NCBI RefSeq assembly: GCF_040938485.1
Contig: NW_027271528.1
Location: 1,488,001-1,552,000, forward strand
Source: Diadema antillarum
Lineage: Eukaryota
Reading direction: 5' to 3'
Length of the DNA stretch: 64,000 nucleotides
Shown here: piece by piece, positions 1 through 27,484 of the stretch
Numbering within the stretch: position 1 is the stretch's first letter
Layout of the letters: each line of letters begins with the position of its first letter
Notes under the pieces: model-generated
Told to the model about the DNA's origin: nothing
The model's database searches: none
Seen by the model: only the letters and a program-made list of their open reading frames with translations
Program-made: the position numbers and the translations under genes

Positions 1-1734
1 TTTCCCCCGGAATATTTTTTTTTTTTGGACTTCTGCCTTCTGTTCTGTCGGAGGACATGTTCATGTGTTCTGAGAGAAATGGAAAGCCGGGACAGGGAAA
101 CACTCAAACCCATCATACAGGAGTGGTGCCTGCCAGGCACTCACATAATTACGGATGGATGGGCTGGATCCAATCACCTCCACACATTGGATCATGGTGT
201 CTATCTCCATGACGTCGTCATCCACCAACATCAGTTTGTGGACCCCGTGCATCGGAATATCCATACCAATGGAATCGAAGGGCTTTGGATGCATGGAAGC
301 GAAAGCTTGGCAGACAATACGGCACATACAGGGAGATGTTCCAAGGCTACCTAGATGAATTCATGTTCCGGTGGAAGAGGAGAGGATCGGGGAGATGCGT
401 TCTGAGAGAAATGGAAAGCCGGGACAGGGAAACACTCAAACCCATCATACAGGAGTGGTGCCTGGCAGGCATTCACATAATTACGGATGGATGGGTAGGA
501 TCTAATCAGCTCAACACATTGGATCACAGCGTCTATCTAGACGACATTGTCATCCACCAACATCAGTTTGTGAACCCCGTGCATGGGAATATCCATACCA
601 ATGGAATTGAAGGGCTTTGGAGGCACGTGAAGCGAAAGCTCCGCAGACACATACAGGGAGCTGTTCCCAGGATACCTAGATGAATCTATGTTCTGGTGGA
701 ATCTGATTAGTTCCACACATTGGATCACGGTGTCTATCTCCACGAGGTTGTCATCCACCAACATCAGTTTGTGGACCCCATGCACCGGAATATCCATGCA
801 CGTGAAGCAAAAGCTCCGCAGACAATACGGCACATACAGGGAGATGTTCCAAGGCTACCTTGACGAATTCATGTTCCGTAGGAAGAGGAGAGGATTGGGG
901 GGATGCGTTCTGAGAGAAATGGGCAGGATCTAATCAGCTCCACACATTGGATCACGGCATCTATCTTCACGACGTCGTCATCCACCAACATCAGTTTGTG
1001 GACCCCATGCTTTGGAATATCCATACCAATGGAATCGAAGGGCTTTGGATGCACGTGACGCGAAAGCTTGGCAGACAATACGGCACATACAGGGAGATGT
1101 TCCAAGGCTACCTGGATGAATTCATGTTCCGGTGGAAGAGGAGAGGATTGGGGAGATGCGTTCTGAGAGAAATTGAAAGCCAGGACAGGGAAACACTAGA
1201 ACCCATCATACAGGAGTAGTGCCTGTCAGGCTCCCACATAATTACAGATGGATGGGCTGCATACAATCAGCTCCACACATTGGATCACGGCGTCTATCTC
1301 CATGACGATTCCAGAGAGGATCGGGGAGATGCATTCTGGGAGAAATGGAAAGCTGGGACAGGGAAACACACGAACCCATCATACAGGAGTGGTGCCTGGC
1401 AGGCATTCACATAATTACGAATGGATGGGCTGGATCCAATCAGCTCCACACATTGAATCACGGCGTCTATCTTCACGACGTCGTCACTCACCAACATCAG
1501 TTTGTGGACCTGTGTATCGGAATATCCATACCAATGGAATCGAGGGGCTTTGGATGCATGTGAAGCGAAAGCTCCGCAGACAATACAGCACATACAGGGA
1601 GCTGTTGCCAGGCTACCTGGATGAATTCATGTTCTGGTGGAACAGCAATGCCGACATGTTCGGTCATCTCCTCTGTGCTATTAGAGAGCAGTACTTCGTC
1701 TCTCCATCTCCCCCTTCCTCTTCCTCTTCCTCTC

Positions 1735-4200
1735 TCATGATGCTGAGGCATCCACATAATATGGATGGACGGGCTGCATACAATCAGCTCCATGCTTTGG
1801 ATCACGGCATCTATTTCCATGACGATTCAAAAGAGGATTGGAGAGATGCGTTCCGAGAGAAATGAAAAGCTGGGACAGGAAGACATTCAAACCCATAGTC
1901 CAGGAGTAGTGCCTGCCAGGCATCCACATAATTACAGATGGATGGGATGGATACAATCAGCTCTACACATTGGATCACAGCATCTATCTCCATGACATCG
2001 TCATTCACCAACATCAGTTTGTGGACCCTGTGCATCAGAATATCCATACCAATGGAATCGAGGGGCTTTGGATGCACGCAAAGCGAAAGCTCCGCAGACA
2101 ATACAGCACGTACGGGGAGTCCAGGAGTAGTGCCTGCCAGGCATCCACATAATTACAGATGGATGGGATGGATACAATGAGCTCCACACATTGGATCACG
2201 GCATCTATCTCCACGATGTCATCCACCAACATCAGTTTGTGGACCCTGTGCATTGGAATATCCATACCAATGGAATCGAGGGGCTTTGGATGTACGCGAA
2301 GCGAAAGCTCCGTAGACAATATGGCACATACAGGGAGCCGTTCCTAGGCTACCTGGATGAATTCATGTTTCGGTGGAACAGCAATCATGCCGACATGTTT
2401 GGTCATCTCCTCAGTGCTATCAGGGAGCAGTATCCTGCCTAAATTCCTCACTCCCTCTCCCCCTTCCTCTTCATCTGTCAGGATGTTAAGGCATCCACAT
2501 AATCACAGATGGATGGGCTGCATACAATCAGCTCCACACTTTGGATCACGGCATCTATCTCCACGACGACGTCATTCACCAACATCAGTTTGTGGACCCT
2601 GTGCATCAGAATATCCATACCAATGGAATCGAGGGGCTTTGGATGCACGCAAAGCGAAAGCTCCGGAGACAATACGGCACGTATGGGGAGCTGTTTCCAG
2701 GCTACCTGGATGAATCTATGTTCTGGTGGAACAGCAATGCCGACATGTTCGGTCATCTCCTCAGTGCTATTACAGAGCAGTACCCCGTCTAAATTCCTCT
2801 CTCCATCTCTCTCATGATGCTGAGGCATCCACATAACATGGATGGATGGGCTGCATACAATCAGCTCCATGCTTTGGATCACGGCATCTATTTCCATGAC
2901 GATTCAAAAGAGGATTGGAGAGATGCGTTCCGAGAGAAATGAAAAGCTGGGACAGGAAGACATTCAAACCCATAGTCCAGGAGTAGTGCCTGCCAGGCAT
3001 CCACATAATTACAGATGGATGGGATGGATACAATCAGCTCTACACATTGGATCACAGCATCTATCTCCATGACATCGTCATTCACCAACATCAGTTTGTG
3101 GACCCTGTGCATCAGAATATCCATACCAATGGAATCGAGGGGCTTTGGATGCACGCAAAGCGAAAGCTCCGCAGACAATACAGCACGTACGGGGAGTCCA
3201 GGAGTAGTGCCTGCCAGGCATCCACATAATTACAGATGGATGGGATGGATACAATGAGCTCCACACATTGGATCACGGCATCTATCTCCACGATGTCATC
3301 CACCAACATCAGTTTGTGGACCCTGTGCATTGGAATATCCATACCAATGGAATCGAGGGGCTTTGGATGTACGCGAAGCGAAAGCTCCGTAGACAATATG
3401 GCACATACAGGGAGCCGTTCCTAGGCTACCTGGATGAATTCATGTTTCGGTGGAACAGCAATCATGCCGACATGTTTGGTCATCTCCTCAGTGCTATCAG
3501 GGAGCAGTATCCTGCCTAAATTCCTCACTCCCTCTCCCCCTTCCTCTTCATCTGTCAGGATGTTAAGGCATCCACATAATCACAGATGGATGGGCTGCAT
3601 ACAATCAGCTCCACACTTTGGATCACGGCATCTATCTCCACGACGACGTCATTCACCAACATCAGTTTGTGGACCCTGTGCATCAGAATATCCATACCAA
3701 TGGAATCGAGGGGCTTTGGATGCACGCAAAGCGAAAGCTCCGGAGACAATACGGCACGTATGGGGAGCTGTTTCCAGGCTACCTGGATGAATCTATGTTC
3801 TGGTGGAACAGCAATGCCGACATGTTCGGTCATCTCCTCAGTGCTATTACAGAGCAGTACCCCGTCTAAATTCCTCTCTCCATCTCTCTCATGATGCTGA
3901 GGCATCCACATAACATGGATGGATGGGCTGCATACAATCAGCTCCATGCTTTGGATCACGGCATCTATTTCCATAACGATTCAAAAGAGGATTGGAGAGA
4001 TGTGTTCCGAGACAAATGAAAAGCTGGGACAGGAAGACATTCAAACCCATAGTCCTGGAGTAGTGCCTGCCAGGCATCCACATAATTACAGATGGATGGA
4101 ATGGATACAATCAGCTCCACACATTGGATCACGGCATCTATCTCCATGACATCGTCATTCACCAACATCAATTTGTGGACCCTGTGCATCGGAATATCCA
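1735..4200 (+). repeat. Higher-order repeat, 1077-bp period (two near-identical copies plus a partial third)
   Basis: Whole ORF sets recur at exact offsets: 1735/2812/3889, 1765/2842/3919, 2191/3268, 2541/3618. Copies 1 and 2 differ by only a few substitutions. Confidence 0.9.
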
Positions 4201-6592
4201 TACCAATGGAATCGAGGGGCTTTGGATGCATGTGAAGCGAAAGCTCCGCAGACAATATGGCACACACAGGGAGCTGTTCCTAGGCTACCTAGATGAATTC
4301 ATGTTTCGGTGGAACAGCAATCATGCCGACATGTTTGGTCATCTCCTCAGTGCTATCAGGGAGCAGTATCCTGCCTAAATTCCTCTCTCCCTCTCCCCCT
4401 TACTCTTCATCTGTCAGGATGCTGAGGCATCCACATAATACGGATGGATGGGCTGCATACAATCAGCTCCACACTTTGGATCACGGCATCTATTTCCATG
4501 AGGATTCAAAAGAGGATTGGAGAGATGCGTTCTGAGAGAAATGAAAAGCTGGGACAGGAAGACATTCAAACCCATAGTCCAGGAGTAGTGCCTGCCAGGC
4601 ATCCACATAATTACAGATGGATGGGATGGATACAATGAGCTCCACACATTGGATCACGGCATCTATCTCCACGACGTCGTCATTCACCAACATCAGTTTG
4701 TGGACCCCATGCATCGAAAAATATTCATACCAATGGAATCGAAGGGCTTTGGATGCACGTGAAGAGAAAACTTGGAAGACTATATGGCACATACAGGGAG
4801 CTGTTCCTAGGCTACCTAGATGAATTCATGTTCCGGTGGAACAGCAATCATGACGACATATTCGGTCATTTTCTCAGTGCTATCAGGGAGCTGTATCCTG
4901 CCTAAATTCCTCACTCCCTCTCCCCCTTCCTCTTCCTCTCTCATGATGCTGAGTTCTTGCCATTCAAACGCAATGATAGTCTTTTAAACGTATTTGGTTC
5001 ATTGTAACCTCAAGAATTATAATATGGTAGCTAGTATCCTAAAGTCTCACTTAATAGCACAAAAAATTACATAATTACAGATGGATGGGATGGATACAAT
5101 CAGCTCCACACATTGGATCACGGCATCTATCTCCACGACGTCGTCATTCACCAACATCAGTTTGTGGACCCCATGCATCGAAAAATATCCTTACCAATGG
5201 AATTGAGGGATTATGGATGTACGCGAAGCGAAAGCTCCGCAGACAATACAGCACATAGAGGGAGCTGTTGCCAGGCTACCTGGATGAATTCATGTTCCGG
5301 TGGAACAGCAATCATGACGACATATTCGGTCATTTTCTCAGTGCTATCAGGGAGCTGTATCCTGCCTAAATTCCTCACTCCCTCTCCCCCTTCCTCTTCC
5401 TCTCTCATGATGCTGAGTTCTTGCCATTCAAACGCAATGATAGTCTTTTAAACGTATTTGGTTCATTGTAACCTCAAGAATTATAATATGGTAGCTAGTA
5501 TCCTAAAGTCTCACTTAATAGCACAAAAAATTACATAATTACAGATGGATGGGATGGATACAATCAGCTCCACACATTGGATCACGGCATCTATCTCCAT
5601 GACGATTCGAAAGAGGATCAGGGATATGTGTTCTGAGAGAAATGGAAAGCCGGGACAGGGAAACAATCAAACCCATCATACAGGAGTGGTGCCTGCCAGG
5701 CACTCACATAATTACAGATGGATGGGATGGATACAATCAGCTCCACACATTGGATCACGGCATCTATCTCCACGACGTCGTCATTCACCAACATCAGTTT
5801 GTGGACCCTGTGCATCGGAATATCCATACCAATGGAATCGAGGGACTTTGGATGCACGTAAAGCGAAAGCTTGGCAGACAATATGGCACATAGGCCTACA
5901 GGAAGATGTTCCAAGGCTACCTCGATGAATTCATGTTCCGGTGGAAGTGAAGAGGATCGGGGAGATGCACTCTGAGAGAAATGGAAAGCTGGGACAGGGA
6001 AACACTTGAACCCATCATACAGGAGTGGTGCCTGCCAGGCATTCACATAATTACAGATGGATGGGCTGCATACAATCAGCTCCATATATTGGATTACAGC
6101 GTCCACTTCCACGTCAATTCGTAAGAGGATCGGAGAGATGCGTTCTGAGAGAAATGGAAAGCTGGGACAGGGAAACACTCGAACCCATCATACAGGAGTG
6201 GTGCCTGCCAGGCATTCACATAATTACGGATGGGTGGGCTGCATACAATCAGCTCCATACATTGGATTACAGCGTCCACTTCCACGTCGATTCGTAAGAG
6301 GATCGGAGAGATGCGTTCTGAGAGAAATGGAAAGCCGGGACAGGGAAACACTAGAACCCATCATACAGGAGTAGTGCCTGTCAGGCACCCATATAATTAC
6401 AGATGGATGGGCTGCATACAATCAGCTCCACACATTGGATCACGGCGTCTATCTCCATGACGATTCGAAAGAGGATCGGGGAGATGCGTTCAGAGAGAAA
6501 TGGAAAGCCGGGACAGGGAAACACTCAAACCCATTATACAGGACTGGTGCTTGCCAGGCATTCACATAATTACAGATGGATGGGCTGCATAC

Positions 6593-7198
6593 CCAGTGGG
6601 TAAAGGAACAATCTAAGAAAGTTCGTGATCATGTACCTTCCCGCCACGGGATACGCCACTGCTGGACGAAAATTACTCCCTGATCTCAAACGTCGGGGAA
6701 GTGCCCCATATCCCGACTTCAAACTGCAACGAAGACGTGGGAGAAACAAGTGGTACAGGAAATTCACTCAAACCAGCGCCTCTTCCAACTGGGCAGAAGC
6801 TGCCCAAACGGAAGGCCACGTTGTCGAAAATGGGCACCGACTCCGACACCGAGGACAAACTTTTGGAGGCCATCTCGACCTTGGATGCCCGTCTCTCTGC
6901 GGAAATAGCCGAATTTAGGGCGGAAGTGAAAGCTGTGGAGAATGCCGTCACTTCCTTGACAGAGCTCGTTGAGGGAAAGGGGGGATGATGCAAGAACTTA
7001 CGCGGAACATATTCAAGCTAGCTTCACCTTGGGAGTCAACCACCTGGCTTCATTGCTTGGGAAGCAAAAGAGAAAAATACATCAGGCGTCGTCTCTCCTA
7101 ACCGAACTGATTACTGATGACAGTGAATAACTTTCCCCAGGAATATTTCTTTTTCTTTTGGACTCTGAGTGCCTTCTGTTCTGTCGGAGGACATGTTC
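6593..7198 (+). pseudogene. Foreign ~600-bp module, copy 1: frameshifted 3' end of an unrelated ORF (acidic linker, coiled coil, helical C-terminus)
   Basis: ORF 6701-6988 reads SDTEDKLLEAISTLDARLSAEIAEFRAEVKAVENAVTSLTELVEG. A frameshift at the G-run continues as DDARTYAEHIQASFTLGVNHLASLLGKQKRKIHQASSLLTELITDDSE*. It is not Merlin-like and loosely resembles MADF/BESS-type accessory-protein C-termini. Confidence 0.45.
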
Positions 7199-7480
7199 GT
7201 GCGTTCTGAGAGAAATGGAAAGCCGGGACAGGGAAACACTAGAACCCATCATACAGGAGTGGTGCCTGCCAGGCACCCACATAATTACAGATGGATGGGC
7301 TGCATACAATCAGCTCCACACACTGGATCACGGCGTCTATCTCCATGACGATTCAAAAGAGGATCGAGGAGATGCGTTCTGAGGGAAATGGAAAGCCGGG
7401 ACAGGGAAACACTCAAACCCATTATACAGGACTGGTGCTTGCCAGGCATTCACATAATTACAGATGGATGGGCTGCATAC

Positions 7481-8086
7481 CCAGTGGGTAAAGGAACAAT
7501 CTAAGAAAGTTCGTGATCATGTACCTTCCCGCCACGGGATACGCTACTGCTGGACGAAAATCACTCCCCGATCTCAAACGTCGGAGAAGTGCCCCATATC
7601 CCGACTTCAAACTGCAACGAAGACGTGGGAGAAACGAGTGGTACAGGAAATTCACTCAAACCAGCGCCTCTTCCAATTGGGCAGAAGCTGCCCAAACGGA
7701 AGGCCACGTTGTCGAAAATGGGCACCGACTCCGACACCGAGGACAAACTTTTGGAGGCCATCTCGACCTTGGATGCCCGTCTCTCTGCGGAAATAGCCGA
7801 ATTTAGGGCGGAAGTGAAAGCTGTGGAGAATGCCGTCACTTCCTTGACAGAGCTCGTTGAGGGAAAGGGGGGATGATGCAAGAACTTACGCGGAACATAT
7901 TCAAGCTAGCTTCACCTTGGGAGTCAACCACCTGGCTTCATTGCTTGGGAAGCAAAAGAGAAAAATACATCAGGCGTCGTCTCTCCTAACCGAACTGATT
8001 ACTGATGACAGTGAATAACTTTCCTCAGGAATATTTCTTTTTCTTTTGGACTTTGAGTGCCTTCTGTTCTGTCGGAGGACACGTTC
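7481..8086 (+). pseudogene. Foreign ~600-bp module, copy 2 (tail of a further copy at window positions 1-64)
   Basis: Near-identical to 6593-7198. Bases 1-64 match its 3' end (tttccc..gaatattt..gccttctgttctgtcggaggacatgttc). Confidence 0.5.
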
Positions 8087-9213
8087 ATGCGTTCTGAGAG
8101 AAATGGAAAGCCGGGACAGGGAAACACTAGAACCCATCATACAGGAGTGGTGCCTACCAGGCACCCACATAATTACAGATGAATGGGCTGGATCCAATCA
8201 GCTCCACACATTGGATCAAGGCGTCTATCTCCATGAAGATTCGAAAGAGGATCGGGGAGATGCGTTCTGAGAGAAACTGAAAGCCGGGACACGGAGACAC
8301 TCAAACCCATAGTCCAGGAGTGGTGCCTGCCAGCAGGGAGGTGAGCTGCCAGGCACCCACATAATTACAGATGAATGGGCTGGATACAATCAGCTCCACA
8401 CACTGGATCACGGTGTCTATCTCCATGACGTCGTCATTCACCAACATCAGTTTGTGGACCCCGTGCATTGGAATATCCATACCAATGGAATCAAGGGGCT
8501 TTGGATGTACGCGAAGCGAAAGCTGCGCAGACAATATGGCACATACAGGGAGCTGTTCCTAGGCTACCTGGATGAATTTATGTTTCGGTGGAACAGCAAT
8601 CATGCCGACATGTTCAGTCATCTCCTCAGTGCTATCAGGGAGCAGTATCCTGCCTAAATTCCTCACTCCCCCTCCCCCTTCCTCTTCATCTGTCAGGATG
8701 CTGAGGCATCCACATAATATGGATGGATGGGCTGCATACAATCAGCTCCACACTTTGGATCACGGCATCTATTTCCATGACGATTCAAAAGAGGATTGGA
8801 GAGATGCGTTCCGAGAGAAATGAAAAGCTGGGACAGGAAGACATTCAAACCCATAGTCCAGGAGTAGTGCCTGCCAGGCATCCACATAATTACAGATGGA
8901 TGCGATGGATACAATCAGCTCCACACATTGGATCACAGCATCTATCTCCATGACGTCATCCACCAACATCAGTTTGTGGACCCTGTGCATCAAAATATCC
9001 ATACCAATGGAATCGAGGGGCTTTGGATTCACGCGAAGCGAAAGCTCCGCAGACAATATGGCACATACAGGGAGATGTTCCCAGGCTACCTGATGAATCT
9101 ATGTTCCGGTGGAACAGCAATCACGGCGACATGTTCGGTCATCTCTTCAGTGCTATCAGGGAGCAGTATCCCGTCTAAATTCCTCTCTCCCCCTCCCCTT
9201 TCCTCTCCATCTG

Positions 9214-9336
9214 TCATGATGCCGAGTTCTTGCCATTCAAATGCAATGAGAGTCTTTTAGATATTTTTGGTTCATTGAAACCTCAAGAATTATAAGGTTG
9301 CTACTACCCTAAAGTCTCACTTGATAGCACAAAAAT
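9214..9336 (+). repeat. AT-rich post-stop (3' UTR/flank) module of the Merlin-like element; further copies at ~4943-5067 and ~5407-5531
   Basis: catgatgc(t/c)gagttcttgccattcaaa..cctaaagtctcactt(a/g)atagcacaaaaa occurs three times after the YP(A/V)* stop module. The last copy runs into unique sequence. Confidence 0.75.
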
Positions 9337-9988
9337 CTTCACATTTGTTATATTACCTCTCAATTCATTTGCGGATTTATCAATAATGCCATGTAAAAAA
9401 GCATCATGTACACCAAAGCAGGGACTATGGAGTCCAGACTCAATGATACAGGCCTGCAAAGCAGTGACTGATGGCACACTTGGTCTCCGATTTCGTATTT
9501 TAAATTTCAGGAGCATAATTCCATGCAGAGTGTTTAAAGCATTTGATTTGTGATTTAGCATCATTATTGTTGCAGCCAATAGGTCAAAATTAATCTGTTA
9601 CATGGCAAATTGTTGGTTGAATTGGGACTCTCTAGGACTAATTAATTTGTAGATTGCATTTCAAACAACATGTAAACTTATGCACATGTATTCCAAGCAA
9701 TCTACAATCTTACATTGCTCTAATGAACAATTTCAGAATTTCTTGTAACATATATCATTTTTCTTGCATTTTTTAAAATCTTGAGCAACTTTCCAGTATT
9801 GCTCAAAAAGACAAACATTAATCACTTTACACAAATGTAAAAAGCTTATCACGTTATAACGCAAGTTTTGTATTTCACCGTTCTTGTGATTTTGTAGAGC
9901 TGCAAAGATGCAAGGAAAAGTGTGAATCATTTCACAAATATAAAAAGTTAATATCACGTTACAAAGCAAGTTTTGTATTTCACTAAAA

Positions 9989-10078
9989 CACACATGAGGC
10001 TTTGAAGAGCACTCACTGTAAGATGACTACGGCAATGAGAGAGCAGTGTCCTGACTCAAAATATTGTCTAGATACATG
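9989..10078 (+). repeat. Solo copy of the 84-bp minisatellite unit
   Basis: aggctttgaagagcactcactgtaagatgactac..gtcctgactcaaaatattgtcta at 9997 matches the units at 14311, 14395 and 14479. Confidence 0.9.
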
Positions 10079-10196
10079 TAGCCCAAGTGGCTATGAGCAC
10101 ATAAAATCAGCAACAGCACAGTAGTTTTTCCTAGTTGACCTGTGATGCAAAGTTGGACGCAATCTTCAGTTGGTTTTCACAAAATAGTATTCGAGG

Positions 10197-10781
10197 ATGG
10201 AGACAGAAGACACAGAAATGTCCATCCACGATATTAAGCTCTGGACGGTTGACGCACTGAAGGCGTTTCTTCGTCAGAGGAACTTGAAAGTGAGCAGCCA
10301 TAAGGAGGAACTCGTGGCTTCAGTGTTCGCTGCCAAAACAATGCCGGAGCTTTTGGCGCCAGGTACCTTAGCAGCTGTTGCAGACCTGCAGAAGAGACAG
10401 CATTGTGGATACCTTCTCAAGACGCCGTTTGGAAAGCTACCTGATCCCCAGGAATTACAAGACTGGGAGTCTGAATCAGACTCGATAACCAAGTGGCCAC
10501 CCACAATGACTTTCGAGATATGCAATTTTCTTCAGAGCATCGATGATATCCCGCTATGGAAAAGACTAATTTCAGACTACAAAGATCAGAAAGCATACAG
10601 CTATTTCGCATCTGGATGGATGAATGAAATTGAGTACCATGCCATTGCCCCTGACAGCAAATACTGTTTCCTAAGAGCAAAGTGCACACCTTCACAGCGC
10701 ATTCGTGGTATCCCTCATAGCATGTGGGATGCTGTAGAGAAAGAGAGCGGAGCAGATTACGCAGAGATATGTGATGAGTAA
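10197..10781 (+). pseudogene. Truncated transposon-associated ORF: SAP-like N-terminus and the region preceding a SWIM finger (YqaJ/lambda-exonuclease-associated type)
   Basis: WTVDALKAFLRQRNLKVSSHKEELVASV is SAP-like. KAYSYFASGW..YCFLRAKCTPSQR..PHSMW..VEKESG is typical of the segment directly before the A-x-C-x-C SWIM motif, but the ORF diverges and stops there. Confidence 0.6.
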
Positions 10782-12437
10782 GATGTTCAATTGTCTTCAG
10801 AAGAAAGAAAATTTGTTTGTAATCTAGTCTCTGTTTCAGACCTACAGGAAGGCAGGTCGTTGAATAAATATGCTGTTAACAGCATTGATATTATCCATGT
10901 AAATTTATCATTCTTCTGCATTCTATATTCGCTGTCGTGAATATTGGGTTCTTTTCTAACTTATGGAAATTTGTTGATGATTGGTGTTTATGTGATTACC
11001 TAACCCCTGACCAGTACAGAGAAAAGCTAACAGAACAGACCAATATTTATCCGCCTCTGTACATTATCGGTCACCTCTTGAGACAATTTGGGGTTGGGGG
11101 GGGGGGGGGGGTTAGACTGAACTCACAACCTTCGCGTTATCAGCACGATGCTCTCATATTTTTGTGTTAAGTGTAATATACTGTAACCACCCTATGGTAC
11201 AATAGGTTAGAGAGGGAGACTAGCTTCTCTTGGAATCTATTATGACGTAAATTTTACCTCCTTACATTTCCTTATTGTCTGCTTAACTGCTCATACTTAT
11301 ACTTATCTCCAACCTTACTACGTTTAGCTACTAGAGTGTATACGTCAGTGTCAAAGAATCTCAATTTGCTTTGGCGATCCAGCTATCTTTGTCCCTGTGG
11401 AAGCATAACACTACTTCAGACAAGGTTTAGTGGCATCTATTATTACAACAATAGATGACATTGATCGATTTATCATTATTATGTCATACTTGAAATATTC
11501 TCTGAAACTTAGCGATTATCGTTAGGTATCACTTACCAATGTTGACACTATAGTCAATGTATCCAGTAGTTGTCATTGATGATGAATAGACTTTTATAGG
11601 CTCCATTAGTTTCACGTTGATAACTTTGATAATTATTGTTATAGAGTTGGAAACTTCGTTGTGAGGTATTATCAGGAAATTCCCTTCATGATAAATCCAT
11701 GTGTTTAACGGTTTGACATTTCCTTAGAATAACGGAGCTGCTAGAAAAGTACGTGTTTCTCCTTCAGAAGTAACCTTGAAATGACAGAGTTTACGTAGTT
11801 TGTCGTTTACGCATTACACATTACGCGCGTCCTATAGCGGACAGTGCGCGTAGACTGTACAGTGCGGAGTTTTATGCATGAAAGCAGAGGTTGACCTGCC
11901 GTATCCAAAACCTAGAATATCAAAACTCATATTATTGTTTAAATTCAATCTTATACACTGAGGAAAGTATCTGGTTACCGACATAAATGATAATTCCACG
12001 GAAGTCTTTGATTGGATTAACGTACAAATATTTCAATTCTATGAATTAAGACATGTTATGACGGATCGGTTGTAAGCCCGTGTATAGCTATGTATTGGAG
12101 GCATGTATTGACGTGCATTATACGGTAGTGAGGTTCGGGGAAATTTCCTCGTTTTTGGCCGTACAGTTTGAATTTGAAGATTCTTTGGAATAATTATAGT
12201 AATAATCTGAGAAAGAATGTTTTTCTCTTCTCTTTGATGTATGTGTAGCATTATAGGCTATTCCAGTTTTTAATATTAAGGAAGTTTTGGTAGTCAAAGA
12301 AACACACTTTAGTTCGCACTGGCAATTCTACGTGTCGAACGTACGGACTCCGCGTCCGCGTAGGAGTGCTCTCTCCAACGTCCACATAAGGTGTATAAAT
12401 ACCGTAAAATTTTAGGCAGCTTGGGAGAGCGGGGGAG

Positions 12438-12726
12438 AGACGCCGGAACTAGAAGAACTCTCTAGAGACCTGGAAGACGAATACCAATGTACGCTCTTAG
12501 ATGACTAAGATGACTAAGATGGGAAACTATGGAAATAGCTAAGAGTTAACCCCCCCCCCCCCCCATACTTTGCCAGATGAATGGTCCCTAATAGAAGATA
12601 TTATAACTCCTCGGACTTAGACGCCGGAAAAATCCAAGAAGACGTGGTACTATAGGAACTTACAGATATTAGACGCCGGAATGCTCCGATGAATAGACGC
12701 CGGAATGCTACATGAGACGCCGGATA
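12438..12726 (+). repeat. Five dispersed copies of AGACGCCGGA(A) upstream of the Gypsy gag
   Basis: Motif at ~12438, ~12619, ~12671, ~12695 and ~12715, with a TATAAATA at ~12394. Confidence 0.7.
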
Positions 12727-13588
12727 AAATTCTGGAGTCCAGTCCATAAATATTAGATGCCATAACTTTCCCCCAATAGACACTTATAAAGATTTCGCCA
12801 TTTAGTGTATCCATTTACTTGGCTAAGTTCGGCTTCTCTTAGAAATTCTATCAAGTTTACTCAATAATTCCTCTGGGCTAATATTATATCAATTATAAAT
12901 TTCCGGGCTTATAAAAAGCTATAAGTTTGATTTGTAACAGTGGCGCATTACATATGTTGTACATTCTGTGAATAAAGTGTACATTTTTGTGTTTGTGTTG
13001 AAACTGAAATCTTAGTCACAGACCTTGAATGATTATGTGTTATGATTTTGTGTCCCATACTCAAGTTTGTTATTGGATTTATACTAATTCAACTCGAACT
13101 AGTATAAATCACATTCATTGAAGTATACTCAGATAACAGTCCACTTAATAAGTACTGAGTAGCCAAGTACCTCGATGCATCAAGATCATATATTTTGATC
13201 GAAACAAACTTATTCATTTGGTGGATAGTGCCCTCTGTCATATTACGAGAATTAGCTTCAAAGATTAGTTAAAGTCTTTCCGCTCGGGACTTAACAATCG
13301 TACACACGGCCTGATCAAACGATGAATCCTGACAAACGACAACACAAGACAGAACATGATACAACGCTGGCCAAAGATGGTATACTAGTAGGCTCCACTT
13401 CCGATCCTCCAATAACGATGAACGAGGAGAACAACAACGCTGATGACAAAGTAGAAGGTAGAGGGGGCCGCCACAATACATTAAATAAGTGCGCCTCTCA
13501 ACTGATATATGCAGGCTAAGTTCTTGCATCGTATTGTTGTTGTTGTTGTTGTTTATAGTCAGATATTTCGATTTAGTCCATATTCATT

Positions 13589-14905
13589 GTGGCAATGAGC
13601 AATATGGCAAACATGTGGGGCGACTGTACGGTGTATGTTAAGAATCTCCCAGAGAAATGTAGTGACAATAATCTGAATGATTTCTTTAATTTGGAAGAAG
13701 TGGAGATTTCCTTTGAGAAAGACTCTCTGATGGGTGAGATGACTGGGTCTGCACACTGCAACTTTAAAACTGCAGAGGATGCAACCAAGGCACTTGCCCA
13801 AAACGGCAAAGAACTTAAAGGAAGGAAAGTAGAAATTATGTGAGGTACCCTTTTCAGCCCTATTCTTAAAAGCAACATCCCAATCAATCCCCTAAAATGT
13901 CCTGTCCCTTAGTCCAAGCACTGCCCCCTTAATCCTCCAGAACAGTGCACGGCTACCAAATTTTTCGGGAGACAAGAGAAAGGGGAGGATTGGACGTCAC
14001 ATTTGAAATGTGAAGGTACGAGGTCGAGTGCCTCCAGAAGGACCAGGACAATATTTCCTTGGGGTTAATTGTGAGGAAATCATTACGTGGTGTGATGAAG
14101 CAGGTCAGATCGTCCTCCACATGGGACCTGATGCCTCGGTAGACGAGATTATAACAGAACTAGAGGGACTTTACGGGACTGTGGAATCAGGTGCTGTCCT
14201 CCTTCAGAAGCTATATGACTCAAAACAGGGAGAAGATTAGAACATTGCAAGCTTTTGTGCCCACTGGCAAATCTCGTTTGATAAGGGGGTTTGGGGTTTA
14301 GACACATATAAGGCTTTGAAGAGCACTCACTGTAAGATGACTACTGCAATGAGAGAGCAGTGTCCTGACTCAAAATATTGTGTAAACACATATGAGGCTT
14401 TGAAGAGCACTCACTGTAAGATGACTACTGCAATGAGAGAGCAGTGTCCTGATTCAAAATATTGTCTAAACACATATAAGGCTTTGAAGAGCACTCACTG
14501 TAAGATGACTACTGCAATGAGAGAGCAGTGTCCCGACTCAAAATATTGTCTAAACACAATTGTTGTTCTTCTAAATAAAAAGGCCAGTCATTTGAAGTCA
14601 ACAGGAGAGCTATACCCCACAACCAACCACACACCCCACTCAACCACAAAATCTAAACTGCTGGAGGTGTGGGCAATTTTGCCACTTCCGGTCCAACTGC
14701 CCCCAAAGCAACATACCCCACCAAGAGGACGTCATGAGTGGAAGGACGGACGCCCTTCATCAGGTCCGGAATTTAAACTGGGCAGGCCCGCGCCGGATGT
14801 AGGCGAGTGCGCGGGCAAATAGGACAACCCAATTAAACCCCGCCCCCCTCATCAAAGTTTCCCGATAATTGGCCCCACCAATACGGACAGGGTACTCATT
14901 ATACT
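13589..14905 (+). mobile_element. Decayed Gypsy/Metaviridae LTR retrotransposon gag (RRM + PNMA-like capsid + CCHC knuckle) and start of pol protease
   Basis: RRM: TVYVKNLPEKCS..TGSAHCNFKTAEDATKALAQNGKELKGRKVEI (13589-13843). Capsid-like: RLPNFSGDK..HMGPDASVDEIITELEGLYGTVESGAVLLQKLYDSKQGED (~13950-14240). Knuckle: NLNCWRCGQFCHFRSNCP (~14656-14705). PIIGPTNTDRVLI (~14862-14900) resembles the pre-protease segment. Stops and frameshifts are present. A candidate LTR end/PBS (TGTAACA-GTGGCGC) lies at ~12932-12946 (weak). Confidence 0.75.
14298..14558 (+). repeat. 84-bp minisatellite, three tandem copies, interrupting the gag relic
   Basis: Units start at 14311, 14395 and 14479. They create the repeat KSTHCKMTTAMREQCPDSKYC(V/L)NTY(E/K)AL in ORF 14316-14822. 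Confidence 0.9.
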
Positions 14906-14929
14906 CTAGCCACAAGGCGCATCGCCCAA

Positions 14930-15190
14930 AAATTATATGAGCCTTTGAACATGCTGTGGATTGATGAACATCCCAAAGCCAATGACAGGGCTGCGTTTAC
15001 AAAAAATGCTGTGACTGTTGGTGAGAAAGTGAGTGAATTGGCAACTGAAAGCATGAAAAATGCTGCAAATTTTGCTGTCAAAACAACAGGTTCTAAAGAC
15101 TTGACTGTAACAAGTGATGGAGCACGGTCACGCCATGGATTTGTATCCAACTTTGGTATAGTGGCCGCCATGTCAAAATGTACAGTGTAT
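14930..15190 (+). pseudogene. Mutator-like (MULE) transposase fragment
   Basis: PLNM..AFTKNAVTVGEKVSELATESMKNAA..LTVTSDGARSRHGFVSNFGIVAAMSKCT fits the A-x-ESM-x-x-AA..VS-x-DG-x-W-x-(K/R)RG(F)-x-S-x-x-G pattern around the first catalytic Asp. Confidence 0.6.
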
Positions 15191-15584
15191 ACAGTATATT
15201 TCATGATGAAAGACAAGCATATATCAATCCATGTCTTGAGTTGCATTGTCAATGACAATTAAATTTTAACTCCAGTACACATCTATACAGCCTCCCTTAC
15301 ACTAGCAAATTAAAGTATTAAAGCCTCAGCCTGGACGTTAACTGTAATTTCATGACAAAAATTCATGACATCAATTCAACGACCTATACATTGCTGAAAA
15401 CATATTTCATTGCGAAGGAAAAATCTTGCATTGTTCCCCCATTGAGTATGCATATCCTGTAAGTATTGTGACACAATTGTACGATGCACAGCCTCTCTAA
15501 AATGCCTAATAAAAATGATTTGTCAAATTCATGTCTGGCATTTTACTTACATCATCCATTATGAGTTCTATCTTTGGTATATAC

Positions 15585-15590
15585 TTTATT
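15585..15590 (-). terminator. Candidate polyadenylation signal of the phosphatidyltransferase gene
   Basis: AATAAA on the - strand about 265 nt downstream of the stop codon. Confidence 0.45.
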
Positions 15591-15853
15591 CCTTTGGTTC
15601 ATCACTGGGGAACACAGTTGAAAGGCATCCCAGCTTTCTTAGATTATTGCATTACATCATGCTGTGAAATCACTGTGCCAGAGGGAAAGTCCCCAAACTG
15701 GTCAAGAGTCATCTCTGGAGACCATGGCTGGACAACCGGGGAAGGATTGACACTTCTAGTACTGTGTGGATGGCTGGCATCCCAAAGTCCACTGACCATT
15801 TGACTGACCGCTGCTCCGATGCACAAATACACTATGGCTTCGCACTGCTCTAT

Positions 15854-18800
15854 TCACTTCTCATTCTCTTTGGCCAGACACATGATGTGGGCGTAGATGA
15901 AGAAAACCTGCCACAAAGATAGAAACCATGACATCCATTACAATGCATAAAATCAAACACCTCATGATAGAGATACTCTTTTGGGAAATACTTTGTGGTG
16001 TGGAAATTCTAACAACTTTCACACTCTACAAAACTATCATGGGAGGAACAATATACAAATAGTACAGAAGTTATTCATTACATCATGTAAAAAGAAAAAT
16101 CTCTTTTTCACATACACACCATGTATAAAGATATTCTATAGAATGGGAGGGTACAACTCGTACTTTCAAGTTTTAAATCCAAATGTTTCAGTCAAATAAT
16201 CACAGCTTTGTCTTTACTGTCATTCACATATTAACCACCAAGTTTTGAAAATCTAGAATGCATACAGTATGGGATCTCATGTCTAGCATCTTTACAACAG
16301 GTATTCAAAACTCCGTGCAGCAAGTAATGTCACCCTTCTGGGCCTTGTTTTATCAAAAGATATAATCGATTATAAATTTCCTCACCACACAGGCTGCACC
16401 CCGGCAATTATCCGCATTATTTGGGTTTGCGTTCATAAACTCCAAATCTGGTCCCGATGCTGCTATTATGCGGATAATAGAAGGGTAGAAAAAAGCATAT
16501 TATTCTTCCCCCGCTCCGATTTTACGACCAAATGATGCGGATATTATCCGCATTATTGAGTTTATGAAAGGGGTATAAGCCATGCAAGCCTTTCCACTCC
16601 ATGTATCCCTATACCAACAGGTCTTTAAAGGAAATCAAAACCTAAAGAGAAATGTGGATTGAGTGAAAGCAGCAATATTAGTAGAACACATATCTGTGAA
16701 AGTTTGAGGAAAATTGGACAATCGATGCAAAAGTTATGAATTTGTAAAGTTTTGGTGTTGGAACCACTGGATGAGGAGACTACTACAGGTTACGATGTCA
16801 AGTGTGGACAACAATATAAAGAAAATATAAAAGGAATTCCACACACAAATTCACTTTTCTAGCATAATGAAAGAGCACTTGACTAACAGCTTTCAGAAAG
16901 CAGGGGGAATTATTGCTACCCTCAACATATGTCAGTATCAAGTTGATGGAATGCGTAATTCTCATGAAAAATGAGTTTTTGTGGAGTTCTCTTTTGTATT
17001 TTCTTCATCACATTGCCCACATATAACATCATAACCTCTAATAGTCTCCTCATCCAGCGGATCCAACACCAAAACTTTAAAATTCATAACTTTTGTATCG
17101 ATTGTCCGATTTTCCTCTAACTTTCACAGATGTGTTTTACTAATATTGCTGCTTTCACTCAAATCCACATTTCTCTTTGGGTTTTGGATTCCTATAAACC
17201 ATCAAAAGCTGCTCTTTTGACAATTCTTGAGTAAACACGCCCATATAAGTTTTCTCCCTCATCATCTCCCATCTTCAAGTAAAATCAACCCACCTCAACT
17301 GAGAAGCACAGTGCCCTCCCAGCACTCAAGAAGCCTATCCCTGCATACTGTACAACCAGCGGCACATGGAGGGTCTTCCCTAGAACTCCGGTGTAGTGGG
17401 CGTAGAGCCAGAGGGGCAGCACAAACAGACCAAGGATTGCAAACGTCCCTGGTAATGTCTTAAAATCTGCAACACAAAAATAAAACGTGAGATGTTCTAT
17501 AAGGAAAACCAGCATTTAACATGGTCCAAACCCATGTGATTGATTTTTCAAACTCACCTCACATATAAGCAAAGGAGTTACTGGCCAAAAATAGACTGCA
17601 CATGTAGGATAAGAGTATTGGATTGAGGATCAGGGAAAAGATACAAATGTGATTGTACGGTTTATTACCTCCGCCAAGGGAGGAGGTTATGTTTTTATCG
17701 ACGTTTGTTTGTTTGTCTACTGGAAAATAACTAAAAAAAGTTGTGAACAAATTTCTATGAAACTTGCAGGAAAAGTTGATAATTAGGCAAGGAACAGATG
17801 ATTAAAGTTTGGCTGTGATTTGGGGATTTTTATGAATTTTTGAAGGATTTTTAATCTTTTGGCAGATATGTTCAATGAACTCGGGGAGTTCAAGCTGCTT
17901 GTATTTGAGGTTTGCATATGTGCACAACAGTGCATGCTCTGTTCAGAAGAGGCACCGCACAGCTGGATGCTGATGATGTAAACAAAAGGCTTCTATATTG
18001 GGAAATTGGGCGATTTTCAGCATGAGTGTATGGGTGGAAATGAGCTGCTTGGAAGAGGTCCACGCTCTCCGAAAGCTTTTCTAGTCTTTGGGTCAAATCA
18101 AAGTTGTGGATCTTGAAGTTTACTACAAGTCATGGGTCTTCAAAGAACTGGCCAGTACACCATATGGCTGGATAAAACAGAGTGAATCTAGTGATTTTAG
18201 CATAAACTTTTATTCTGATTCCATAGGAGAGATTTGTTATTACATACCACTGTAATACACAGAATATCACTACTATTTTTGTATTTGAAAGACAACAGTG
18301 AGTCTTATCATAGAAAGAAAAGAGGATCATCGGTGACACAAAATGACTGTACAAATATTTCCCGTTTCCACAACCCATGTTTCCAGTGGTGTCAAGTCTT
18401 GAAAAGAAAAGCAAGAAAAAACTAGAAATGTCGCTATGGCGACTGGTATGCCTCCGCCATAATGCATGGTTCTCCTAATAGGTCTATAGTACATGTGGAC
18501 AATGTGTGATTACATTTTCACAAAATTGGCAAAATATTAAAATGACATGTTTGTCACAAATGTATTGAATGTTTACCTTCCTTGACCTATGTTCAATTGG
18601 ATGAATAAGAGAGCATGTATTTGGGGATTTAAGAACTTTAACTTGACTTTGACCATTTCATAAGTTTATGCACTGAGTAATTTTCAAGGTATGGAGAAAA
18701 AGCGCAATTTCTGTATTGAACAGTAAATTGTTATCATTTTCATCTGGCCTTTGATTCATAAGAGAATCACTGTCAGGCAGAACATACATAAATTCAGCAT

Positions 18801-21800
18801 GTACTAAGTTTCAAGATAACTTGAGCCACTTCCGAGATATGGAGAAAGAAGTAAGTTCAGCACTTTCACTTGATCTTTGACCTTTTGACCTTTGACCTTC
18901 TTGGCAAAAAAAAAATCCCAGAGAATCTCTATTGGGTTATACATGCATACATCAAGTTTTAAAACAAACAATCCTGCTGGCATTGCATAAATATAAGGAA
19001 AATAATAAAATTTTGAAGTATTACCCTTGACCTTTGACCCCTGACCTTTGACCCCATGAACCCTAATTTCCCTAGATAACCACTGCCAGTCAGTAGATGC
19101 ATATATACTATGTTCCATGAAGATACATTGAACAATTTCCAAGATACAGAGAAAAAAGTGAAATTTTAACATTTTACTTGACCTTTTGACCTTTGACCTT
19201 TTGACCTCATGACCCCAAACTTTCACCAGAGAATCTTAATTGGGTAGTACATGTATACACTAAGTTTCAAGAAAATATCTTCCGGCATTGCATAGATATG
19301 GGGGAAATAGTAAAATTTTAAGCATTTGACCTTGACCTTTTGACCTTTGACCTTGAGCATGTGCACCCAAAAGTTGATAGGCACAACTTCACCCCCTAAT
19401 ACACATACATGCCAAGTTTCATTAGGATACCTCAAAAGGATTTGGTAGTTACAATGTCCACAAAATTCATTACGGACGGACGGAAGGACGGAAAGACGGA
19501 CGGACGGACGGACGGACGGACAACCCGAAAACATAATGCCTCCGGCACCACTTCGTGGCGGAGGCATAAAAATAATGCATCTGGCGACACTTCGTAGCGG
19601 ACGCATAAAAATACAATGTGACCTCGAAAAAAGCATATAATGACAGCTGATATTTTTTCTTCTTTTTTTTTGTCCAGATGTACAACAGTAAATGGACTTA
19701 AGGTTTGAGAAAATCAGGACTGTGCAGACAAAAATGAAAATTCATGTAAAATTTGACACCTAAATTACGCCACTTTAGCTTTAAACTATAATAAAATATT
19801 TGAATCTGAAATATCACAATGATTATTTTTATTTTGACATTGATAGGTAGTGTAGCTATGTAGAAGAAAACAGGAAAACAAAAGGGCAAATGAATTAAAG
19901 GACAATATTAAGTACGAGCTAAACCTCATAGCATTTGGAAGAAGATTTGAGAATACAAAACACTTCATGGTACAATATGAGAGAAGTAATGACCAGTACA
20001 GTGGCAATACAACTTAAGAAAGCCTTACTTTTTTCCATGACTTTCTGGACAAACCATGGCGCCTGGACTGTGGACGACTTCCACTGAGAACCCAGATTGT
20101 GTGTGCAGACAAAGACAAGCCACTCCAGCGCAGCGAAGAAGTAGCCCCACTGGTCCAAGCAGATTCAAATAAATATGAGACTGCACACTGGCATACAATC
20201 TCAGAGGATAGTAACAAAGTTACAAGATACACACATGGTATACTATCTGACAAAACAAACTCTTTTCATTACTCATAATGGAAAACATTCAGGTTCTCTT
20301 TTTTCATGTTTTTTTCTCTTTTTTTTTTTGGGGGGGGGGGGTTGTGAGGGGGCGGCTTCTGATATGATGCAAAAACTGATGGTAACAATATTTTCCCTTC
20401 TCCACAGATTATTTTATACCAGATTTACATTTGTTCTGTAAATCTGATATTTCAACAGTCACATATTTTCCCTACTTTTTCAACTTTGCTCAGTTTCTAC
20501 AGATTGGGATTTCTTTCTCATTTTGTCAAAAATGAAATTTGCTTTCATGCAAATACAATGTTCAGCAACAGTTACAATTTTCTCAATGTTTTCCTGGTTT
20601 TGTTCAACCCTACTGTAGCCCTCTTAACTTACAATAACTTCTTCATCAGATATTTACCTCCCCCCTTTTTTTTGGGGGGGGGGGGGGGGGGGAGGGGGGA
20701 CATGACATCAAGCAAATGATAAAAATGCGGTTTTGGGTAAACCAAGTGTATCTGTCTACATTTCCAATCTGTACCCAAAGCGGATATTAAAGCAAGTGCG
20801 GTGTCTCTCTTTAATGCTTAACCCTCGGCCTTCTCACTCACAATCTCATAACATCCTTGATTTTGTATTTTCTGTAAACAATACTTCGTAAATATTGAAA
20901 TATACGTAGTACATACTTTATATTTAAATAATCAGGTACACAATAAATCTACAACATTAGGAAAATCCTTTCAAAATTGAACAGGAAATCCGATATTTTC
21001 CGTGTACAATTAATTCTGCATCTGAACATCTAGATTTTTTTTTCTCTTTTTTTTTTTTCCTTTGTGTACAAAAGACCTTACATCTCCTAGCGTACCATAT
21101 TTCATTCAATATATGTATCCATGCACAAAAATTATTTCTCTTTGTTTTTGTTTGTGGAAAACGTTATTCAAAGACTTACCTGGTATAACCGACACCACAG
21201 CATACCCCTGCCCAGATTGTCAATGACCACATCAAACTGAAAAACAAATGCATAGGGACAGACAATGTTACACAGATTGTACAAATTGCTACTGAGAGCA
21301 GCGACAATAACCAGGTATGACATTAAATTGGTGCATCTTGACAGTTAAGCTTGAAGTTGCTTTGTGGTGAAGAGGGTACCTTACATTTAAAAACATGTGC
21401 GTGAAAGTCTCACATGTACAATGTATATGCCTGTAGGTAATATCTTTAAAAGCAAATAATTAGAATCCAGTGGACATTTTGAGCACACCCCTATATCTTA
21501 ATGACAAAAATTGAGATTATAGACACAGGAAAACTTATTTTAGGAATGAGGAATTCTGGAATACCATAATTAACCAGCTGGCAAAAGTTCAATACTAGTC
21601 CCGAGTTTACTCGGGCTGGTGTCTATGGGAAATATGTGTTAAATAACAAAATCACCTCATCCTCAACGGGTTAAACAGGAGGAGCCCCATTCACATTTCC
21701 TGACAGACGGAAAATGGGTTTTAGTAGCCAAGGACACACATACAGGCTTTGAGTATCCCTACTAGAGCTAATCCAGATGAACTTACCCATGCACCGAATG

Positions 21801-26705: not shown

Positions 26706-27484
26706 TTTTAACCCAACTGCCGCGTTATGATGATAATGATGTACACGCACATGTACTCTAGCTCTATGCACGTATACTGTATGGATCCCCGGATCCCCTA
26801 CTGTGTATGCACATACTGCTAGCTTCGTAAACAAACTTGCAGACTTTGTATACCGCCCTCATTCGATCGCTGCGCTTTACGCTTGTACGATCCACGATCC
26901 ACGATCATACCATAGGGCACGTCAAATCTCTCTGCGAAGAGGGCGACCGGTCGGGCCGGGGTTCGCTGGCACGGCACGGATATCCGGATGGCGTGTACTC
27001 TAGCCAGCTGCGCAGCTAGCAGTAGCGCCAGCGCAGCTTTGTACTGTACATTTATGTGTGATGATGTTTATTCCTGCGCTGATACACACAGCTAGCTGTC
27101 TGCTTCATTCAGCTCAGCCACGCTGGAAGTATCTACAAGCTCTGTAGACCAGCAACAGAAATAAGTTTCATAATTATTTACCGCTGTGATAATTTAAGTA
27201 AACTGAAAAGTGGGAACTGATTGCAATGCCTTTTGTCAAGGATCTCAGATTTGTGATTTCTATACCATTTTGCAACACATTTGGAATCAGCTCGGCTTCC
27301 TGGAATCTCGCCACGGCGCGGCACTGCTGCTAGTGCTAGTGGATGCTGTTGTAAGCACTCGTCAGTAACTTACCTTGTGTATACTATTGTGCAAAACCTT
27401 CGACGTGATTGCCAAAAAAATACCGAGCCACTAATGTGAATGTCTATTAAAATCTAACTAATTTTCGGAAAACATTGATTCTTC
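26706..27484. promoter_or_regulatory. Probable bidirectional promoter between head-to-head genes
   Basis: 779 bp separate the divergent ATGs (26705 on -, 27485 on +). CpG-rich patches at ~26850-27030 and ~27290-27420, and a perfect palindrome AGCTGCGCAGCT at 27006-27017. Confidence 0.65.

What the first reader, a model, noticed from the sequence alone, without database searches (positions are those of the whole stretch)
1..15900. All transposon relics over 15 kb lie on one strand, directly downstream of an antisense-pointing gene: possible uni-strand piRNA-cluster-like locus
Seen: the Merlin array, the foreign ORF module, the SAP/SWIM-type ORF, the Gypsy gag and the Mutator fragment are all + strand. 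The phosphatidyltransferase gene is transcribed on the - strand and ends at ~15.6-15.85 kb, pointing into them. Established: uni-strand piRNA clusters such as Drosophila flamenco hold TE fragments co-oriented antisense to transcription. Inference: read-through or a local - strand promoter would give a long antisense RNA against several TE families. Caveat: five independent fragments share an orientation by chance about 1 time in 16.
Basis: inference. Interest (0 to 1): 0.7.

Follow-up and report, generated by a model that had tools for sequence, protein, structure and literature searches.

The report
Antisense transposon archive behind urchin gene
Just behind an ordinary sea-urchin lipid-enzyme gene lie broken pieces of seven different jumping genes that all face against that gene, a layout repeated behind other genes in the same genome, and it likely serves as a read-through source of transposon-silencing small RNAs (piRNAs), which is untested because no RNA data could be examined.

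Summary
Observation confirmed and extended. Between the end of a minus-strand CDP-alcohol phosphatidyltransferase gene (stop 15,854; AATAAA 15,585) and about 1.5 kb left of the window lie relics of seven elements: Merlin, four Gypsy, SAP-YqaJ type, Mutator-like. All are + strand (7 of 7 antisense, 1/128 by chance). About 58% of the 15.9 kb is one tandemly amplified Merlin-Gypsy chimera, 10.8 kb here and 4.3 kb on the other haplotype. The bias is local and ends before the next gene. The stronger evidence is genome-wide. Nine other loci are dense, one-strand mixes of transposon coding fragments: families not used to pick them are co-oriented 27 to 5, and 8 of 9 have a host gene pointing in antisense. 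Random DNA has 0.9% such cover, against 36-67% here. The closest known systems are mammalian piC-DoGs and mosquito read-through clusters, not flamenco. Against: no RNA or piRNA data; the lack of poly(A) signals here is not shared by the other loci; two loci also have a sense-pointing gene. The scan noted this layout before in other sea-urchin genomes (e1-8152612, e1-8152618). Verdict: likely a read-through piRNA source (about 0.6), a new member of a known kind.

The parts
1..9335 (+). Tandem array of C-terminal Merlin-type (DDE_Tnp_IS1595) transposase fragments; begins about 1.5 kb left of the window; 10.8 kb here, 4.3 kb on haplotype C365
6592..7130 (+). Copy of the 3' ORF region of Gypsy element A (full-length copy on C247), co-amplified with the array
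7480..8020 (+). Second copy of the Gypsy A 3' ORF module
9986..10077 (.). One copy of an 84-bp unit of unknown source, same orientation as the three copies at 14296-14558
10188..10781 (+). Truncated SAP-domain ORF of a DNA transposon whose intact relatives carry YqaJ and a convergent DDE_Tnp_4 transposase (ISL2EU-like; label recalled)
10763..11181 (+). 5' part of RRM-gag Gypsy element B
11182..13475 (+). Solo LTR (TG...CA, ATAC on both sides) of Gypsy element C, nested in element B; about 94% identical to LTRs of intact copies; orientation set by gag-pol in C790, C111, C926
13480..14288 (+). Broken RRM-gag of Gypsy element B
14296..14558 (.). Three tandem copies of the 84-bp unit
14615..14901 (+). 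gag-protease junction fragment of Gypsy element D, 94% identical to a copy on C807
14837..15259 (+). Reading frame holding a Mutator-like (PF20700) transposase fragment
   Evidence: (allele, E=3e-7)
15585..15590 (-). AATAAA, the likely poly(A) signal of the host gene; the next minus-strand AATAAA is 18 kb on, at -2,451
15854..26705 (-). CDP-alcohol phosphatidyltransferase-family host gene (198 aa, 7 coding exons); predicted donor of the read-through transcript

Best explanation
The stretch is a 17-kb pile of truncated pieces from seven transposons, all facing against the gene just before it, and it is likely a read-through piRNA source locus. Shown: the fragments, their common strand, the minus-strand host gene ending 0.3-0.6 kb away, haplotype-variable tandem amplification of a Merlin-Gypsy chimera, and the same layout at other loci of this genome. 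Inferred: (1) RNA polymerase II from the host gene sometimes passes the AATAAA at 15,585 and runs about 18 kb, possibly to the AATAAA at -2,451; (2) the extension is antisense to all seven elements and is cut into Piwi-bound piRNAs; (3) antisense insertions are kept because they yield silencing guides, sense insertions are lost, and tandem duplication would raise the dose against Merlin and Gypsy A.
For: 7 of 7 element-level relics are +, with no - hit between -11,000 and 15,600 at E<=1. Transposon-coding cover is 67% (36% without the array) against 0.93% in 8 random 50-kb blocks, which gave 9 hits, all LINE, with 5 of 8 blocks empty. Nine other loci are one-strand mixes: C733 20 of 20 hits, C713 19 of 22, C736 13 of 13, C183 14 of 15, C181 13 of 13, C41 29 of 29, C15 9 of 12, C1139 11 of 11, C816 10 of 10. 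With the families used to pick each locus left out, 27 are co-oriented and 5 opposite (P=1e-4). Among 617 genome-wide hit positions, cross-family neighbours within 30 kb are co-oriented in 12 of 12 pairs, about 6 loci once alleles are merged. An antisense-pointing host gene was found at 8 of the 9 loci: RRM gene C41, TAM41 C733, AP4E C713, SURF1 C816, POLG2 C736, IPPK C181, XPG-domain ORF C183, PDCD2L C1139. Minus-strand AATAAA: 0 against 4.5 expected in 9300-15260. The relics lost CpG faster than their sources in 4 of 5 elements compared. Precedent: PMC11615739 and 10.1101/2022.08.22.504762. Sea urchins have Piwi and clustered 28-nt piRNA-like RNAs that match transposons (PMC13666137).
Against: No transcript or small RNA was seen, so every functional step is inferred. 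AATAAA is not depleted on the predicted transcript strand of the nine other loci (163 against 145 expected), so its absence here may be luck. Two of the three loci with both flanks identified (C816, C736) also have a gene pointing in in sense, so the prior for an in-pointing gene may exceed 0.5. No gene was found behind C15. The other loci were picked because they held repeated same-strand hits; C41, C816 and C375 are mostly or only Mutator/SAP and may reflect local duplication. Cross-family neighbours are even at 30-60 kb (4 to 4) and 3 to 6 at 60-150 kb. Gypsy B shows no CpG asymmetry, and the array counts are not independent. In mouse, transposon content behind a gene did not by itself predict read-through (PMC11615739).
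Confidence: 0.6

Rival explanations
1. Transcribed, but not a defence locus: the region lies in an extended 3' end of the phosphatidyltransferase gene, or in a long 5' intron of the minus-strand GH63 gene. Sense insertions were removed only because their splice and poly(A) signals disturb the host transcript.
For: Both flanking genes are on -. There is no minus-strand AATAAA across the pile. An antisense bias of intronic LTR elements is known (recalled).
Against: This does not explain the roughly 40-fold enrichment of coding fragments over random DNA, the same bias in short DNA-transposon coding pieces, or the tandem amplification. At C816 and C736 the far gene is convergent, so the 5'-intron version cannot apply there.
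Confidence: 0.17
2. A stand-alone, flamenco-like unit: an antisense piRNA precursor driven by its own promoter near 15.3-15.6 kb or by antisense activity of the solo LTR, not by read-through.
For: The host gene has a canonical AATAAA. The solo LTR is the most CpG-rich part of the pile (o/e 0.82-1.04).
Against: Only about 0.3 kb separates the poly(A) signal from the first relic. The intact LTR copies carry similar CpG numbers, so the richness is inherited. The recurring in-pointing host gene (8 of 9) is not needed by this model.
Confidence: 0.1
3. A neutral transposon nest whose common strand is chance, inflated by nesting and tandem duplication.
For: Only 7 events (1/64 on either strand) in a 1.75-Gb assembly. 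58% of the span is one array, one element is nested in another, and the array differs 2.5-fold between haplotypes.
Against: Held-out 27 to 5 and neighbour 12 of 12 co-orientation. Such piles are absent from 400 kb of random DNA.
Confidence: 0.08
4. One composite mobile element (Helitron- or pack-type capture) or a reverse-transcribed concatemer of transposon mRNAs, inserted as a block.
For: Most pieces lack their own termini and abut directly. Captured fragments tend to share a strand (recalled).
Against: The block occurs only here and on the allele; each piece has separate source loci. The pieces differ in age (about 94% to 50% identity to their closest copies), and the LTR has its own target duplication.
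Confidence: 0.05

Closest known systems
piC-DoGs, piRNA clusters downstream of genes in mouse, human and hamster (PMC11615739; 12 passages read)
   Same: Densely packed, antisense-biased transposon fragments directly behind a host gene's poly(A) site, over tens of kb.
   Different: There defined by RNA and piRNA data and made of LINE/ERV pieces. Here an echinoderm locus rich in DNA-transposon pieces and amplified chimeras, with no RNA evidence.
Read-through core piRNA clusters of mosquitoes (bioRxiv 10.1101/2022.08.22.504762; 12 passages read)
   Same: One-directional clusters starting right after an expressed upstream gene, with trapped sequence in antisense.
   Different: Those are enriched for non-retroviral viral elements; none was looked for or seen here. 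Dependence on the upstream gene was shown by knockdown there and is untested here.
Drosophila flamenco and flam-like uni-strand clusters (PMC10643416; 12 passages read)
   Same: Transposon relics on one strand, including several Gypsy elements.
   Different: Those were found with 100-kb windows (one is about 560 kb), are canonical transcription units, and their bias is driven only by Gypsy. This locus is 17 kb and the bias covers DNA transposons too.

Membership tests
Read-through piRNA cluster (piC-DoG / mosquito core cluster) | Starts directly behind a host gene that points into it | tested here: met
   Stop 15,854, AATAAA 15,585, first relic frame ends 15,259
Read-through piRNA cluster (piC-DoG / mosquito core cluster) | Densely packed transposon fragments | tested here: met
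   36-67% coding-hit cover against 0.93% in 400 kb of random DNA
Read-through piRNA cluster (piC-DoG / mosquito core cluster) | Fragments antisense to the host gene's direction | tested here: met
   7 of 7 elements; no opposite hit at E<=1
Read-through piRNA cluster (piC-DoG / mosquito core cluster) | Transcript continuous from host exons across the cluster | not testable with these tools
   No reads could be laid. The indirect sign (no AATAAA on -) holds here but not at the other loci
Read-through piRNA cluster (piC-DoG / mosquito core cluster) | Yields 24-32-nt, 1U-biased, one-strand Piwi-bound RNAs | not testable with these tools
flamenco-like uni-strand cluster | Large (100-kb scale) LTR-rich block | tested here: not met
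   About 17 kb (21 kb with the outlier), bounded by the GH63 gene at -10,936
flamenco-like uni-strand cluster | Strand bias driven by Gypsy elements alone | tested here: not met
   Merlin, SAP-type and Mutator-like pieces share the bias
flamenco-like uni-strand cluster | Own promoter | not testable with these tools
   Needs capped-end or chromatin data
Composite capture element (Helitron/pack type) | Whole block repeated at non-allelic sites | tested here: not met
   Only the allele C365 carries the pieces together; the searches score the best candidates only

The most novel reading that the evidence does not exclude
Sea urchins keep a dispersed set of ten or more small read-through piRNA loci behind housekeeping genes (TAM41, SURF1, POLG2, IPPK, AP4E, PDCD2L, this phosphatidyltransferase). 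These loci archive terminus-less coding scraps of DNA transposons as well as retroelements, and tune guide dose by tandem amplification of chimeric units. Merlin-Gypsy chimeric arrays occur at three separate loci (window, C713, C733), and the array here differs 2.5-fold between the two haplotypes of one animal.
Probability: 0.35. Interest if true: 0.72.

Novelty: new member of a known kind. Interest (0 to 1): 0.52.

Why it matters
[quoted passage not shown] If confirmed, read-through clusters would extend from mammals and mosquitoes to a non-vertebrate deuterostome. They could be called from sequence alone, and this report gives ten named loci to test with one small-RNA library. The haplotype-variable arrays would allow a direct test of whether cluster copy number sets silencing strength. 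If refuted, one-strand piles need another cause, which matters for anyone predicting clusters from strand bias.

Tried and rejected
No RNA holder was listed for window 9200-18000; no reads were laid, and this is no evidence either way. A possible HTH-psq/pogo N-terminus at 9386-9505 (my reading by eye) had no Pfam or NCBIfam hit, no library hit and only its allele in the genome, so it was not counted. KolobokP as the source of the SAP ORF: the paper's text has no SAP, SWIM or YqaJ (PMC9587614, 4 passages); dropped. No SWIM domain was reported by Pfam in the SAP ORF. Poly(A)-signal depletion as a class feature failed (163 against 145). Regional CpG o/e does not separate the pile from gene bodies or random blocks, and 1-kb bins did not locate the GH63 promoter. 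The 386-bp insertion private to C365 is a palindromic, widespread repeat with no strand. Pfam on 135 frames of 62 aa or more from the 30 kb upstream (124 sent) gave only an integrase C-terminus as a transposon hit. Pfam on long frames in the other loci was insensitive, hence the tblastn library. No host gene was found in about 40 kb right of the C15 pile. Earlier notes near this place or on this protein: none. Not-in-print searches (listings and abstract starts only) showed no paper on uni-strand or read-through piRNA clusters in echinoderms, but the library lacks most subscription papers. Wei et al. 2012 (cited in PMC13666137) was not read and may place clusters. No supplements were opened.

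Full report
Setting. The window is G000:C640:1488001-1552000 of a 1.75-Gb assembly that holds both haplotypes: C365 is the allele. Two proteins identical to genes here are labelled Diadema antillarum by their source, so this is a sea urchin. Negative coordinates below count left of window base 1.

The host genes. The gene right of the finding encodes a 198-aa CDP-alcohol phosphatidyltransferase-family protein (PF01066) in 7 coding exons on the minus strand, from 26,705 to the stop at 15,854-15,856. An AATAAA on the minus strand lies at 15,585-15,590. Left of the finding a GH63/MGH1-like glycosidase gene, also minus strand, starts at -10,936 and points away. All relics lie in this 26.5-kb gap.

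The relics. A library of 170 transposon proteins from this genome was run on 264 kb around the window. Their strand was set by Pfam hits or by lying on the strand of such a hit within the element. It gave 50 + and 7 - hits; 49 of the + hits and none of the - hits fall between -5,600 and 15,259, and no - hit appears there even at E<=1. They reduce to seven elements. (1) Merlin-type transposase fragments (PF12762; the name Merlin is recalled), about 33 pieces of the C-terminal part plus an N-terminal outlier at -5.6 kb. (2) Gypsy A: integrase end and 3' ORF at -1,090 to about 50, 88% identical to a full-length copy on C247. (3) A SAP ORF whose intact relatives sit with YqaJ opposite a DDE_Tnp_4 gene (ISL2EU-like, recalled); this element has ORFs on both strands. 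(4) RRM-gag Gypsy B. (5) A solo LTR of Gypsy C at 11,182-13,475 inside B, + by the gag-pol of intact copies and by their flanks. (6) A gag-protease junction of Gypsy D, 14,615-14,901. (7) A Mutator-like fragment, confirmed on the allele. Seven of seven antisense is 1/128. The array is 10.8 kb here and 4.3 kb on C365, which also lacks 12,831-13,665. Beyond -52 kb the elements are mixed, 3 on - and 1 on +, so the bias is confined to the gap.

Is it more than chance? One locus cannot say, so I looked for a class. Family searches showed fragmentary hits piling up at a few places. I fetched nine such loci (C375 and C477 were treated as alleles of C816 and C736 and not counted twice) and eight 50-kb blocks at arbitrary positions. 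Hits on the majority strand: C733 20 of 20, C713 19 of 22, C41 29 of 29, C736 13 of 13, C183 14 of 15, C181 13 of 13, C15 9 of 12, C1139 11 of 11, C816 10 of 10. Because the loci were picked on same-strand hits, I dropped the picking families: 27 co-oriented and 5 opposite, P=1e-4, with all fetched flanks included. Four of the five opposites are LINE pieces about 8 and 22 kb outside the packed zones, and one is a long open RT frame. Some rows on both sides are two parts of one element, and some library proteins came from these loci. The random blocks gave 9 hits, all LINE, 0.93% cover, against 67% in the window pile (36% without the array). A test free of my picking used 617 typed hit positions, with repeated hits in one array thinned and the window, its allele and same-element SAP-DDE pairs excluded. 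Cross-family neighbours within 30 kb were co-oriented in 12 of 12 pairs, about 6 loci after merging alleles and duplicates (P about 0.03), 4 to 4 at 30-60 kb and 3 to 6 at 60-150 kb. Four of those 6 loci are among the nine, so the two tests overlap.

Direction. If these piles are read antisense from a neighbour, a host gene should point into each from the proper side. It does at 8 of 9: RRM exons at C41 (RBM19-like, recalled), TAM41 at C733 and AP4 epsilon at C713, SURF1 at C816, POLG2 at C736, IPPK and an intronless, duplicated XPG-domain ORF at C181 and C183, and PDCD2L at C1139. None was found at C15. The gaps from the last exon I identified to the first relic are about 1 to 18 kb, with later exons unmapped in several. 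At a prior of 0.5 this is 1/256. However, C816 and C736 also have a gene pointing in from the other side, the far flank is unknown for the rest, and tail-to-tail gaps may tolerate insertions best, so the true prior is probably higher.

Indirect signs of transcription. The minus strand has no AATAAA from 15,585 to -2,451 (0 against 4.0 expected in the pile, 0 against 4.5 in 9,300-15,260). The nine other loci show no such depletion (163 against 145). Source CpG sites read TpG/CpA in the relic more often than other C/G sites: Merlin 136 of 691 against 230 of 2,539 (reverse direction 27 of 393; tandem copies are not independent), Gypsy A 17 of 106 against 28 of 398, solo LTR 13 of 174 against 25 of 688, Gypsy D 3 of 32 against 5 of 130. 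Gypsy B shows no asymmetry (8 of 46, reverse 7 of 30). This suggests germline methylation, which in most invertebrates marks transcribed genes and in some species transposons (PMC11292947, abstract start only), so it does not decide. RNA itself was not examined.

Mechanism. Shown: anatomy, strand, flanking genes, haplotype variation and recurrence. Inferred: read-through past the host poly(A) site gives an 18-kb RNA antisense to seven transposon families, which is cut into piRNAs; selection keeps antisense pieces; duplication raises the dose. Sea urchins have the Piwi protein Seawi and clustered 28-nt piRNA-like RNAs matching DNA transposons and retrotransposons (PMC13666137, 12 passages; PMC10742642, 4 passages). 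I put this reading at 0.6, with strand bias from host-transcript constraint alone at 0.17, an own promoter at 0.10, chance at 0.08 and a composite element at 0.05.

Comparison and novelty. It is laid out like mammalian piC-DoGs (PMC11615739) and mosquito read-through clusters (10.1101/2022.08.22.504762): the three sequence-level features are met, and the two RNA-level defining features could not be tested, so it is a candidate and not a proven member. It fails two features of flamenco-like clusters, size and Gypsy-only bias (PMC10643416). Four literature searches listed no description of such loci in echinoderms; most subscription papers and all supplements were unseen. Earlier notes of this scan describe the same layout in other sea-urchin genomes and in other animals. 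They are unchecked AI notes, read after my own class tests had begun, and are not counted as support. Verdict: a real feature, a new member of a known kind if confirmed, interest 0.52.

Noticed in passing
G000:C713:2315800-2333300 (L202-L203) and G000:C733:1079900-1086800 (L039, L055): Two more tandem arrays of chimeric Merlin + Gypsy pol fragments, built from different Merlin and Gypsy pieces than the window's, each on one strand and antisense to a nearby host gene (AP4E, TAM41).
   Followed up: partly
G000:C41:3250000-3356000 (L096, L097, L069, L070, L098, L099): A one-strand pile of about 105 kb of Mutator-like and SAP-type fragments with a roughly 6.2-kb tandem repeat, starting about 3 kb behind an RRM gene; the largest candidate seen. 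Its middle 60 kb was not fetched.
   Followed up: partly
window 26705-27500: The phosphatidyltransferase gene (-) and a zinc carboxypeptidase gene (+, Peptidase_M14) start head to head about 0.8 kb apart in a CpG-rich patch (o/e 0.88-0.92): a likely bidirectional promoter.
   Followed up: no
window 13295-13475; L024, L026, L040: In Gypsy C the gag reading frame opens inside the 2.3-kb LTR, about 57 codons before its end; intact copies carry a third ORF after pol, and several occur as tandem LTR-internal-LTR chains (C926, C1225).
   Followed up: partly
window 13577-13840; L030: Gypsy B gag begins with an RRM domain followed by PNMA-like and zinc-knuckle regions; the family has many copies at about 84% identity.
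   Followed up: no
L001-L004 (window -10,936 to -36,198): A 15-exon GH63/MGH1-like glycosidase whose listed homologues are mostly from metagenomes and bacteria, with a few echinoderm, hemichordate and crustacean ones.
   Followed up: no
window 9986-10077 and 14296-14558: An 84-bp unit flanks the SAP-Gypsy block on both sides in the same orientation; no source was found among the fetched loci.
   Followed up: partly
window 25737-26132 and 46774-47250: Minus-strand frames that read like LINE 3' ends (recalled; no Pfam or library hit) in introns of the two host genes, one sense and one antisense to its host.
   Followed up: no
G000:C183:780281-782467 and 802390-804486 (L269, L271): Two intronless 700-aa XPG-domain (asteroid-like, label recalled) ORFs in tandem beside a one-strand pile that also holds DNA-polymerase-B fragments.
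   Followed up: no
window 60457-60656: A 200-base run of N inside the carboxypeptidase region; not examined.
   Followed up: no
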